Below are positions 56,399-56,768 of a stretch of 64,000 nucleotides of DNA, piece by piece. The notes below the pieces were generated by a model, which worked only from the letters and a program-made list of their open reading frames with translations, did no database searches and was not told the origin of the DNA. Within the stretch, counting starts at the first letter, position 1. Each line of letters starts with the position of its first letter. Position numbers and translations under genes: made by a program. This DNA comes from Anaerolineae bacterium (lineage in GTDB: Bacteria > Chloroflexota > Anaerolineae > J102), in the NCBI GenBank assembly GCA_027002405.1, contig JALWZT010000109.1, positions 4,624 through 68,623 of the forward strand, given 5' to 3'.

Positions 56399-56489
56399 AT
56401 CATCCTCCAGTGAATGTTGGAATCATGATATTCATTCTATCATATCTTGCGACGAGAAGGTAGTCCCGATGACGCCCCTCAAACAAAGC

Positions 56490-56612
56490 CCACTGGCCCG
56501 GCGAATGACGCCGTGCACCTCGTAGCCTTTGGCCAGCAGAAACTCGGCCAGATAGGGGCCGTCTTGGCCGGTAATGCCGGTGATGAGAGCTACAGGTTGA
56601 GTGGATGTCATG
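56490..56612 (-). pseudogene. gmd: GDP-mannose 4,6-dehydratase N-terminal remnant (41 codons), truncated
   Basis: [41 protein letters not shown] ~85% identical to E. coli Gmd N-terminus, then nonsense and stop. Confidence 0.7.
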
Positions 56613-56624
56613 TGAAATAAGCCG

Positions 56625-56768
56625 CTGATGAGGATTTGGCAAAATCAGACGACGATTGCCTTTCATCATAGACTCATGATTACCACCAGCGTATGGCCCA
56701 TCAAATCCTAACGCTCGCAGGCGTTTTATAAAATCTCGTCGAGAGACAGGGGTCAGGCGCTTCGTCAT
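56625..56768 (-). CDS. hicA: HicA-family toxin, first ~48 aa recognisable, C-terminus replaced by read-through into gmd remnant
   Basis: [48 protein letters not shown]. Confidence 0.55.

What the first reader, a model, noticed from the sequence alone, without database searches (positions are those of the whole stretch)
56400..56768. 41-codon remnant of GDP-mannose 4,6-dehydratase (gmd) overlapping a C-terminally altered hicA
The minus strand at 56612-56490 encodes [41 protein letters not shown], an unmistakable Gmd N-terminus, then runs into nonsense and a stop. In another frame across the same DNA, hicA (first 48 aa conserved) loses its normal C-terminus. The rest of gmd is absent from the window. 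So a GDP-fucose/rhamnose/perosamine-pathway entry gene of the glycan cluster was destroyed at the boundary of the TA island, and the polysaccharide made by the cluster may have changed composition as a result.
Basis: partly seen in the sequence, partly recalled or inferred. Interest (0 to 1): 0.55.

Follow-up and report, generated by a model that had tools for sequence, protein, structure and literature searches.

The report
Dead gmd stubs mark toxin-antitoxin island joints
The 41-codon piece of the sugar-pathway gene gmd is real but is an old, dead relic, one of four in a patchwork island of toxin-antitoxin genes, and these relics mark the joints where blocks of those genes were swapped in or out; this is ordinary genome decay with a modest twist.

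Summary
The minus strand at 56611..56489 encodes Gmd residues 1-41, and it matches only the gmd model (E 2.6e-15). It is overlapped by a hicA ORF that has lost its last ~25 residues. The same sequence is found in six contigs from at least five samples, so it is not a mis-assembly.

- The stub lies inside a 7.6-kb toxin-antitoxin (TA) island, not at its edge.
- It is one of four gmd 5' relics (A 56628..56489, D ~55655..55598, B 53490..53380, C 51812..51781), drawn from two allele classes.
- Its junction with the downstream UPF0175/DUF3368 cassette is shared at ~90% identity with another metagenome (L089/L090), so the break is old.

A 596-nt contig (L177) follows hicA'-stub A up to Gmd codon 26 and then switches to relic B. 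The window therefore carries a 3,073-nt block of three TA cassettes bounded by gmd-derived repeats. In L089, a 1.8-kb TA block sits between near-identical gmd repeats. A 99.9%-identical sister strain (L192) continues differently.

I read the relics as recombination joints for gain and loss of TA-cassette blocks. There is no intact gmd, fcl or recombinase in the window. Whether the genome keeps a gmd elsewhere, and whether the glycan changed, could not be tested. This is ordinary decay of modest interest.

The parts
56489..56628 (-). gmd relic A, the finding. It comprises the native gmd leader (TCAGCGGCTTATTTCAC, 56628..56612) and Gmd codons 1-41 (56611..56489). Codons 1-26 are orthologous to the L177 stub. 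Codons 27-41 resemble the stubs of L089/L091/L092, so relic A is a chimera.
   Evidence: (TIGR01472 only, E 2.6e-15)
56400..56768 (-). hicA' ORF of 122 aa. Only residues 1-48 (56768..~56625) are HicA. The joint to the gmd leader lies at ~56629/56628, and the remaining 74 residues are out-of-frame read-through of the gmd relic.
   Evidence: (profile 2-39 of 58; 21.4 bits vs cut-off 27)
56768..57049 (-). hicB antitoxin (UPF0150-like), apparently intact and now without a working toxin partner.
   Evidence: PF21748, 108.7 bits
56399..56488 (-). Junction between the gmd break and the TA1 antitoxin start. The first 43 nt are shared but diverged (~74% identical to L089). They are followed by a conserved palindromic -10/operator-like stretch, GATATGATAGAATGAATATCATGAT, which is ~95% identical to L089.
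   Evidence: The consensus promoter scan found nothing here, so a promoter role is inferred only.
55663..56398 (-). TA1: UPF0175 antitoxin (56398..56150) and DUF3368/COG2405 PIN-like toxin (56157..55663). Both are intact and 90% and 92% identical to L089.
   Evidence: PMC5499597
55598..55655 (-). gmd relic D: the leader and start of the long-N-terminus gmd allele. The ATG is mutated to TTG, there is an in-frame TAA, and the sequence is cut after '..ALI'.
53461..56533 (-). 3,073-nt block absent from L177. It contains gmd codons 27-41, the junction, TA1, relic D, a partial mini-element, Phd/PIN_3, MNT/HEPN, the R palindrome and degenerate gmd codons ~8-26. It is bounded by CTGCTG copies at 56539..56534 and 53466..53461.
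53380..53490 (-). gmd relic B. A degenerate 5' part (~53490..53461) is followed by well-kept codons 27-~54 (53460..~53380), which are 94% identical to L177. It ends in ..[11 protein letters not shown].
53347..53375 (-). Promoter-like site TTGACC-17-TAGAAT (with TG), lying between the relic B break and the TA2 antitoxin.
52941..53303 (-). TA2: UPF0175 antitoxin (53303..53052) and a DUF3368 toxin remnant that is cut at 52941 by the mini-element.
51902..52640 (-). TA3: UPF0175-like antitoxin (52640..52380) and DUF3368-like toxin (52399..51902). The assignment rests on DNA homology to L089 and L091, whose genes carry precomputed Pfam UPF0175 and DUF3368 hits. I did not run Pfam on these two proteins, and NCBIfam gave no hit.
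51781..51812 (-). gmd relic C: the gmd leader and codons 1-5 (MTSNQ), cut by the mini-element.
   Evidence: (D12)
51535..51780 (.). 246-nt mini-element. A second copy lies at 52695-52940 and a partial copy at 55377-55600. It interrupts relic C and the TA2 toxin gene.
53487..53610 (.). R element, a palindrome of heptamer repeats (CGCAGAT/ATCTGCG/ATCAGCG). Other copies lie at 58270-58331 and 48081-48147. The same kind of element sits directly upstream of intact gmd genes and of the stub start codons in relatives.
49549..57049 (-). The whole TA-cassette island, between the epimerase gene (58218..57175) and the GT4 gene (49458..48331). All genes are co-oriented. It includes a 97%-identical segmental duplication (50300-51661 = 53858-55489).

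Best explanation
The feature is a non-functional relic. It is the native leader plus the first 41 codons of GDP-mannose 4,6-dehydratase. Upstream it is fused to a hicA gene that has lost its C-terminal helix. Downstream it is fused to a UPF0175/DUF3368 (VapC-like) toxin-antitoxin cassette.

It is one of four gmd 5' relics scattered through a 7.6-kb island of co-oriented TA cassettes inside a glycan gene cluster. Together with a heptamer palindrome that natively precedes gmd, and a 246-nt mini-element, the relics are the joints at which blocks of TA cassettes were inserted, duplicated or deleted.

Shown:
- The window differs from L177 by a 3,073-nt three-cassette block bounded by gmd-derived repeats.
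- L089 carries a 1.8-kb TA block between near-identical copies of gmd codons 10-41.
- A 99.9%-identical sister strain continues differently after a relic.

Inferred:
- The events were single-crossover (Campbell-type) or unequal homologous recombination through the very conserved 5' segment of gmd, plus microhomology joins at the palindrome. That is how hicA was fused to the gmd leader.
- The stub makes no enzyme. It is either inert or merely read through.
- Several toxins in the island are also dead, so the island is partly a graveyard.
For: - Relic identity.
- Four relics.
- Two allele classes (MTS[TN]QPVALITG and M[IN]NEQPN..QPATALITG).
- Shared stub|TA1 junction with L089/L090 (961 nt, 89.6% identical).
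- Shared hicA'|leader junction, with the switch from A-like to B-like sequence at CTGCTG in L177.
- In L089, the stub and a gmd piece covering E. coli Gmd residues 10-219 flank a 1.8-kb TA block, and the duplicated codons differ at 2 of 87 nt.
- Mosaic history: stub pS is 0.60, against 0.28 and 0.17 for the adjacent TA genes (Fisher p = 1e-4).
- The sister strain L192 diverges after PIN_3 into a relic-C-like leader, the mini-element, R and a sugar dehydrogenase gene.
- R-like palindromes lie directly upstream of every gmd start, whether intact or stub.
- No gmd piece occurs in 80 loci (427 kb) carrying more distant DUF3368 relatives, so the association is specific to this lineage and locus.
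- Dead toxins: HicA, PIN_3 in both copies, TA2 DUF3368.
- No recombinase in the window.
Against: - The direction of the 3-kb difference from L177 (insertion or deletion) is unresolved.
- The gmd repeats that bound the block are only ~75% identical over ~45 nt. That is poor substrate for RecA, so the joins may be illegitimate rather than homologous.
- Break positions are scattered. 3' ends fall at about codons 5, 11, 32, 41, 45, 54 and 107, and 5' ends at about codons 8, 10 and 17. This fits repeated accidents as well as any single mechanism.
- The relics keep open frames and differ mostly at synonymous sites, which a purely inert relic does not predict unless it is corrected by gene conversion or was captured from different alleles.
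- The middle of the island (50.6-53.6 kb) is spanned by no contig from this organism's own samples; only the 370 nt from relic B into TA2 (53466..53097) is backed by L177, a relative. Some comparator contigs are short (L177 is 596 nt), and all come from metagenome assemblies, in which repeats can create chimeras.
Confidence: 0.7

Rival explanations
1. One reading: one destructive event at the edge of the TA island removed a working gmd from this glycan cluster. The organism then lost its GDP-6-deoxyhexose branch, and the polysaccharide changed composition.
For: - The window has no intact gmd, Fcl-like, Rmd, Per or ManC gene.
- In relatives, gmd followed by an Fcl-like reductase heads glycan operons.
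- The relics carry gmd's own leader and the upstream palindrome, so a gmd once stood in or next to this island.
Against: - The junctions are shared with other populations at 78-94% identity, so any loss is old and not specific to this genome.
- The stub is internal to the island.
- Four relics from two allele classes imply several events.
- The surviving cluster shows no gene that obviously needs Gmd's product.
- Elsewhere, a stub coexists with an intact gmd.
- A second copy in this MAG could not be excluded.
Confidence: 0.2
2. Site-specific integration: the conserved 5' segment of gmd is an attachment site for integrase-driven elements or integron-like cassettes. These leave a gmd stub at one end and bring a replacement 5' end at the other, as dusA-targeting islands do.
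For: - UPF0175/DUF3368 cassettes are flanked by gmd pieces: TA1 and TA2 have a gmd 5' piece upstream, and TA1 and TA3 have a gmd leader and start downstream.
- L089 has a duplicated gmd segment around its insert.
- All island genes are co-oriented.
- Three unrelated stubs end within 0-3 nt after the 'RRAS' codons.
Against: - No integrase, transposase or other recombinase was found in the window or in L089-L092.
- No conserved core is shared by the overlapping relics A and B.
- Break points are scattered.
- The R palindrome is present at only some cassette boundaries.
- More distant DUF3368 cassettes show no gmd association.
- The 'RRAS' coincidence may reflect a query that ended at that point.
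- In L184 the break is next to an IS1595.
Confidence: 0.1
3. The stub ORF is functional. It could be a small protein or leader ORF, or the retained gmd promoter and leader could drive or tune the downstream TA operon.
For: - The reading frame is intact from the ATG in all orthologous stubs.
- pN/pS is 0.08-0.28 (Fisher p = 0.03 for window versus L177).
- The stub stops 33 nt before the antitoxin start.
Against: - Forty-one residues of a Rossmann fold, without the catalytic Thr/Tyr/Lys region, cannot be a dehydratase.
- Copies within one genome are near-identical while copies between genomes are diverged. This fits gene conversion, or capture of different working alleles.
- Relic A has Ser->Pro in GQDGSY, relic B has a degenerate 5' half, and relic D has lost its ATG and has a stop.
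- The TA cassettes carry their own promoter-like sites.
Confidence: 0.08
4. Assembly artefact: a chimeric contig joined at repeats in a metagenome assembly.
For: - The island is rich in repeats that are 97% identical over 1.1 kb.
- Short-read contigs break at these repeats.
- The 50.6-53.6 kb part is spanned by no contig from this organism's own samples; only 53466..53097 is matched, by L177 from a related population.
Against: - hicB-hicA'-stub A-TA1 is identical in six contigs from at least five samples and different assemblers.
- The relic B-TA2 joint is seen independently in L177.
Confidence: 0.03

Closest known systems
Gene remnants at recombination junctions of O-antigen, capsule and EPS loci (from general knowledge; not checked in the literature here)
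   Same: A truncated piece of a conserved sugar-pathway gene sits at a joint in a variable glycan locus. The conserved gene serves as a recombination anchor.
   Different: Here the DNA between the remnants is TA cassettes, not alternative glycan genes. The same gene's 5' end recurs four times, from two allele classes.
TA-rich variable regions and TA cassettes in chromosomal integron arrays
   Same: A co-oriented array of small, self-promoted type II TA modules (HicAB, UPF0175/COG2405, Phd/PIN, MNT/HEPN). Many are decaying. The array sits in a strain-variable region.
   Different: There is no integron integrase. No attC-like site lies at every boundary. The joints are gmd relics, a heptamer palindrome and a mini-element.
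Campbell-type (single-crossover) insertion-duplication
   Same: The outcome in L089 and in the window versus L177 is an inserted block flanked by two truncated, overlapping copies of the target gene.
   Different: The mechanism is inferred from the end products only. The flanking repeats in the window are ~75% identical, and the direction (gain or loss) is unknown.
Islands that target the 5' end of a gene and supply a replacement 5' end (dusA-type integrative elements; from memory)
   Same: Cassettes are followed by a fresh gmd leader and start (relics C and D), and a stub is left upstream.
   Different: There is no integrase and no conserved crossover core. The replacement starts are themselves truncated, and gmd is not restored.
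HicAB type II TA systems
   Same: The hicB-hicA order is kept. HicB is intact and the conserved HicA histidine is present.
   Different: HicA lacks its C-terminal ~25 residues and is fused to the gmd leader, so it is presumably inactive and leaves an orphan antitoxin.

Membership tests
GDP-mannose 4,6-dehydratase (NCBIfam TIGR01472) | Full-length match above the curated cut-off (415 bits, ~340-aa profile) | tested here: not met
   The stub scores 56.5 bits and covers profile positions 2-35 of 342. The intact relative in L173 scores 524 bits.
GDP-mannose 4,6-dehydratase (NCBIfam TIGR01472) | N-terminal Rossmann GxxGxxG motif with the Gmd-specific context ([27 protein letters not shown]) | tested here: met
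   gmd is the only NCBIfam family hit at E <= 1e-3.
GDP-mannose 4,6-dehydratase (NCBIfam TIGR01472) | Catalytic Thr/Tyr/Lys region and substrate-binding C-terminal domain | tested here: not met
   The Gmd-like sequence ends at residue 41. No continuation exists anywhere in the window.
HicA toxin (Pfam PF07927) | Match above the gathering score over the whole 58-position profile | tested here: not met
   21.4 bits against a cut-off of 27, covering profile positions 2-39 only.
HicA toxin (Pfam PF07927) | C-terminal helix (GDIS.GLL..IL.QAGI..EE) present in full-length relatives | tested here: not met
   Alignment A1: the match is lost after residue 48.
HicB-type antitoxin (Pfam PF21748, UPF0150-like) | Full-length domain match, with the gene directly upstream of hicA | tested here: met
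   108.7 bits, profile positions 1-64 of 64. The gene's stop overlaps the hicA start.
UPF0175 / COG2405 (DUF3368) PIN-like TA module | UPF0175 gene immediately upstream of, and overlapping, a DUF3368 gene, both above the Pfam cut-offs | tested here: met
   94.8 and 48.9 bits. The pairing is described in PMC5499597. Toxin activity itself cannot be tested with these tools.
Integron cassette array | intI integrase with attI, or attC sites at every cassette boundary | tested here: not met
   No integrase was found in the window. The only recurrent palindrome (R) is at 3 sites in 64 kb. No attC covariance model was available, so attC was judged by eye only.
Integrase-driven island targeting a gene's 5' end | Tyrosine or serine recombinase gene at one end, and a conserved crossover core in the duplicated target segment | tested here: not met
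   No recombinase was found in the window or in L089-L092. Relics A and B share no identical core.

The most novel reading that the evidence does not exclude
The highly conserved 5' segment of gmd, together with its upstream heptamer palindrome, acts as a portable homology handle. Through it, blocks of toxin-antitoxin cassettes are gained, lost and exchanged between related Chloroflexota genomes without any dedicated recombinase. This would be a RecA-dependent analogue of an integron array sitting at the head of glycan operons. The relics would be kept gene-like by conversion against a resident gmd.
Probability: 0.25. Interest if true: 0.5.

Novelty: new member of a known kind. Interest (0 to 1): 0.3.

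Why it matters
Practical lesson for annotation: a short, near-perfect N-terminal match to a housekeeping sugar enzyme inside a TA island is a recombination scar. It should not be read as evidence about the glycan an organism makes. One stub does not show that the pathway is lost.

Biological point: this case gives a concrete, sequence-resolved example in an uncultured Chloroflexota lineage of how TA islands grow and shrink. Whole blocks of cassettes come and go at repeated relics of a neighbouring conserved gene, and toxins are inactivated while antitoxins persist.

If the handle idea holds more widely, it would help explain why TA modules cluster in strain-variable glycan loci. A second, unrelated lineage shows the same association.

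Tried and rejected
1. Relatives with an intact gmd between the same epimerase and GT4. The species-representative genome scan with the epimerase gave at best 78% identity and no synteny; only 3 of 80 loci had a gmd within 10 kb. The GT4 has no relative above 63%. This led nowhere.

2. Second intact gmd in the same MAG. The listing of cluster members returned no accessions. A guess at an NCBI+Logan Gmd (P0143) turned out to be an unrelated genome. Not testable with these tools.

3. Is the gmd association a property of the UPF0175/DUF3368 family? No. Eighty metagenome loci with toxins 52-66% identical (427 kb) hold no gmd piece.

4. Integron-like array or attC sites. Rejected for lack of an integrase and of a boundary element at every cassette.

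5. Viral-contig scans for the TA1 operator and for the relic B/TA2 promoter sequence gave no matches.

6. Many other short 'Gmd stubs' returned are contig-end truncations or frameshifted full genes, judged from their tails. They are not the same phenomenon.

7. The consensus promoter scan around stub A found nothing, so I do not claim a promoter there.

8. My first pS/pN run against L177 had wrong offsets. It was redone.

9. NCBIfam gave no hit for the ORF fragment inside the mini-element. Its resemblance to four-helix-bundle/23S IVS proteins is from memory only.

Full report
**1. The observation**

The minus strand carries a 59-aa ORF (56611..56432). Its first 41 residues are [41 protein letters not shown], followed by an 18-residue unrelated tail.

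Three tests identify it as gmd:
- Among NCBIfam models it hits only the gmd equivalog TIGR01472 (E 2.6e-15, profile positions 2-35 of 342).
- Its DNA is 85-86% identical to the 5' end of intact gmd genes from relatives.

A 122-aa ORF (56768..56400) overlaps the stub in another frame. Only its first ~48 residues are HicA. Pfam HicA_toxin matches profile positions 2-39 of 58 at 21.4 bits, below the cut-off of 27. Full-length relatives continue for ~25 more residues (GDISVGLLQRILRQAGISREEW..) that the window lacks. hicB upstream is intact.

The stretch is found at 99.5-100% identity in six contigs from two NCBI MAGs, three ENA assemblies and a Logan run. It is therefore real and not a mis-assembly.

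**2. The surroundings**

The stub is not at the edge of the TA island. It lies inside a 7.6-kb array of co-oriented TA cassettes (49549-57049), between an SDR epimerase (58218..57175) and a GT4 (49458..48331). Reading the minus strand, the array contains:
- hicB-hicA'
- relic A
- UPF0175/DUF3368 (TA1)
- Phd/PIN_3 (toxin frameshifted)
- MNT/HEPN
- UPF0175/DUF3368' (TA2, toxin cut by a mini-element)
- UPF0175/DUF3368 (TA3)
- a 97%-identical second copy of Phd/PIN_3-MNT'/HEPN'
- a second hicB 5' fragment fused to an AbiEii-like ORF

DUF3368 is the COG2405 VapC-like PIN family, and UPF0175 is its dedicated antitoxin (PMC5499597).

The island sits in a large EPS-type cluster (about 19-64 kb). The cluster has a priming transferase, many GT4/GT2 genes, a flippase, methyltransferases and an ArnB/PseC-like aminotransferase. 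It has no Fcl, Rmd, Per or ManC, and the window holds no integrase or transposase.

**3. More gmd pieces**

The window holds three further gmd 5' relics:
- Relic B (53490..53380) covers Gmd codons ~8-54. Its 5' part is degenerate. From codon 27 onward it is well kept, ending ..[22 protein letters not shown].
- Relic C (51812..51781) is the same 17-nt leader as in relic A plus ATG ACG TCC AAT CAA (MTSNQ). It is cut by a 246-nt mini-element.
- Relic D (~55655..55598), directly after the TA1 toxin stop, is the leader and start of a different gmd allele with a long N-terminus (M[IN]NEQPN..QPATALITG). Its ATG is mutated to TTG, it has an in-frame stop, and it is cut after '..ALI'.

The UPF0175/DUF3368 cassettes are flanked by gmd pieces. 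TA1 and TA2 have a gmd 5' piece upstream, and TA1 and TA3 have a gmd leader and start downstream. There is no full-length gmd in the window.

**4. Relatives**

A search with the stub returned near relatives that are also stubs.
- P0005 (L089/L090) has the same non-Gmd tail as relic A.
- P0002 (L177) joins relic C's start to relic B's tail.
- L091 and L092 carry two or three gmd pieces each, in similar TA islands.

Window 56600..55645 (stub, junction, UPF0175, DUF3368) aligns contiguously with L089 at 89.6%. The stub|TA1 junction is therefore shared and old.

Identity is not uniform along that alignment:

| Segment | Identity to L089 |
|---|---|
| Stub | 79.6% |
| First 43 nt after the break | ~74% |
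| Palindromic -10/operator-like stretch onward | ~95% |
| UPF0175 (antitoxin) | 90% |
| DUF3368 (toxin) | 92.4% |

Synonymous divergence is 0.60 in the stub, against 0.28 and 0.17 in the TA genes (Fisher p = 1e-4). The unit is a mosaic.

In L089 the stub is followed by a 1.8-kb block (UPF0175, DUF3368, a 77-aa ORF, HicB, HicA). After the block comes a gmd piece covering E. coli Gmd residues 10-219 that runs off the contig. The duplicated codons differ at only 2 of 87 nt.

By contrast, 80 metagenome loci with DUF3368 toxins 52-66% identical (427 kb) hold no gmd piece. The association belongs to this lineage's locus, not to the TA family.

**5. The key comparator, L177**

L177 is a 596-nt contig from a different study. 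It matches window 56765..56493 (hicA' from codon 2, the hicA'|leader joint, gmd codons 1-26) at 93%. From nt 227 it matches window 53466..53097 (gmd codons 27-54, the tail, a TTGACC-17-TAGAAT promoter-like site, and the TA2 antitoxin) at 94%.

The three-way alignment puts the switch at CTGCTG (codons 25-26), with copies at 56539..56534 and 53466..53461. Three conclusions follow:
- Relative to L177, the window carries a 3,073-nt block (56533..53461) bounded by gmd-derived repeats. The block holds gmd codons 27-41 of the other allele type, TA1, relic D, a mini-element, Phd/PIN_3, MNT/HEPN, the R palindrome and degenerate gmd codons.
- Stub A is a chimera.
- This is exactly the product expected from a single crossover between a resident stub and DNA carrying a 5'-truncated gmd piece. 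It is equally the product of the reciprocal deletion, and I cannot tell which.

A sister MAG contig (L192) is 99.9% identical from hicB to PIN_3. It then continues into a relic-C-like leader with MTSNQ, the mini-element, an R palindrome and a nucleotide-sugar dehydrogenase gene that the window lacks. So the island varies between very close strains, and the variation is at these same elements.

**6. The hicA joint**

hicA runs to ..CCAAATCCTCA and then continues as gmd's own leader, TCAGCGGC(T/C)TATTTCAC ATG. The same leader lies upstream of relic C.

Intact gmd genes in relatives (L173/L174) are preceded by a palindrome of heptamer repeats (CGCAGAT/ATCAGCG). The same kind of element lies upstream of the stub start codons in L091 and L092, and after several DUF3368 cassettes.

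I infer that the hicA truncation is a deletion that joined hicA to this palindrome/leader region, perhaps through a few bases of microhomology. The join is shared with L177, so it is also old.

**7. What gmd's native context looks like**

The closest intact Gmd proteins (87-91% identical to L089's piece) come from Chloroflexota: Caldilineaceae, Chloroploca and Anaerolineales. In L173/L174 and L175, gmd is followed by a reductase whose best match is GDP-L-fucose synthase (293-302 bits, below the equivalog cut-off of 500), and then by glycan genes. None of this is syntenic with the window beyond gmd itself.

The idea that a gmd-fcl module once headed an operon here is therefore plausible but not shown. 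The claim that the glycan changed is untested.

An unrelated lineage (L184-L187) is a caution. There, a 36-aa stub ending RRAS* sits two genes downstream of an intact 381-aa gmd. It lies next to a PIN toxin and an IS1595, in a glycan locus peppered with TA pairs.

**8. Selection on the relics**

Differences among relics are mostly synonymous. For A versus B, pS is 0.62 and pN 0.09. For A versus the L089 stub, pS is 0.60 and pN 0.08. Copies within one genome are near-identical: L089 stub versus L089 gmd has pS 0.05, and L092 s1 versus s2 has pS 0.11.

Recent differences between the window relics and L177 are 6 synonymous and 5 non-synonymous (pN/pS 0.28, Fisher p = 0.03). The neighbouring UPF0175 gives 0.06 and hicA' gives 0.11.

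I read this as capture of different working alleles, or conversion against a resident gmd, rather than function of a 41-residue Rossmann fragment. The data do not separate these possibilities.

**9. Verdict**

The feature is a real gene relic with an ordinary explanation. The added value is that it is one of a set of relics that mark the joints of a recombining TA-cassette island.

The mechanism (homologous or microhomology-mediated recombination through gmd's conserved 5' segment and its palindrome) is inferred from end products only. An integrase-driven or integron-like system is not supported. Novelty is low to moderate.

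Noticed in passing
window 51535-51780, 52695-52940, partial 55377-55600; also L089 ~9920-9990, L092 288-378, L192 2566-2790: A 246-nt mini-element (copies 96% identical) with GGAGACAAGG-type inverted repeats and an internal ORF fragment, KTHRDLDVYQMAFEAAMRIL. It cuts gmd relic C after codon 5 and the TA2 DUF3368 toxin gene. The ORF resembles the N-terminus of four-helix-bundle/23S-IVS proteins, but only from memory, because NCBIfam gave no hit.
   Followed up: partly
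window 58270-58331, 53487-53610, 48081-48147; L173 86-138; L091 4838-4922; L092 1223-1328 and 3484-3571: A palindrome built of heptamer repeats (CGCAGAT/ATCTGCG/ATCAGCG). It occurs only three times in the 64 kb, all around this island. It also lies directly upstream of intact gmd and of stub starts in relatives. The fold z-score is -2.1. Whether it is a REP-like element or a regulatory element is unknown.
   Followed up: partly
window 50300-51661 vs 53858-55489: A 97%-identical segmental duplication carrying Phd/PIN_3 and MNT/HEPN. The lower-coordinate copy has a ~260-nt deletion that destroys MNT/HEPN.
   Followed up: partly
window 54556-55001 and 50714-51159 (-): The PIN_3 toxin is frameshifted at residue ~97 in both copies, compared with the intact 148-aa homologue in L089. 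Its Phd-like antitoxin is intact.
   Followed up: yes
window 49549-50290 (-): A second copy of the first ~110 nt of hicB (87-91% identical to 56946-57052) is fused to a 228-aa ORF with weak AbiEii/DUF6036 nucleotidyltransferase matches, just upstream of the GT4.
   Followed up: no
L192 (GCA_027028885.1) 2428-3581: A sister strain is 99.9% identical from hicB to PIN_3. It then continues with a 35-nt tandem duplication, a relic-C-like gmd leader with MTSNQ, the mini-element, an R palindrome and a nucleotide-sugar dehydrogenase gene absent from the window. This is either a strain-level structural variant or an assembly chimera.
   Followed up: partly
L184-L187 (JGI/ENA contigs; stub P0120 listed in 44 blocks of the contig index): In an unrelated lineage, an intact 381-aa gmd is followed by a 69-aa/PIN TA pair and then a 36-aa gmd stub of a different allele ending RRAS*. 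The stub is next to an IS1595 transposase. The surrounding glycan locus also carries MNT/HEPN-like, ParE and UPF0175/DUF3368 pairs.
   Followed up: partly
window 46763-47303 (-): A methyltransferase-like gene appears split into two overlapping ORFs (104 aa and 89 aa), which suggests a frameshift. NCBIfam gave no hit to either part.
   Followed up: no
window 48331-49458 (-): The GT4 bounding the island has no relative above 63% identity among 5.8 billion proteins. The nearest are from Fervidibacter, Thermoanaerobacteraceae and Bacillota, which hints at horizontal acquisition.
   Followed up: no
L009 1032-1717 (uncultured Anaerolineae, epimerase 78% identical): The closest species-level relative of the epimerase has a UPF0175/DUF3368 pair immediately upstream of that epimerase. 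TA pairs therefore neighbour this sugar gene in another genome too.
   Followed up: no
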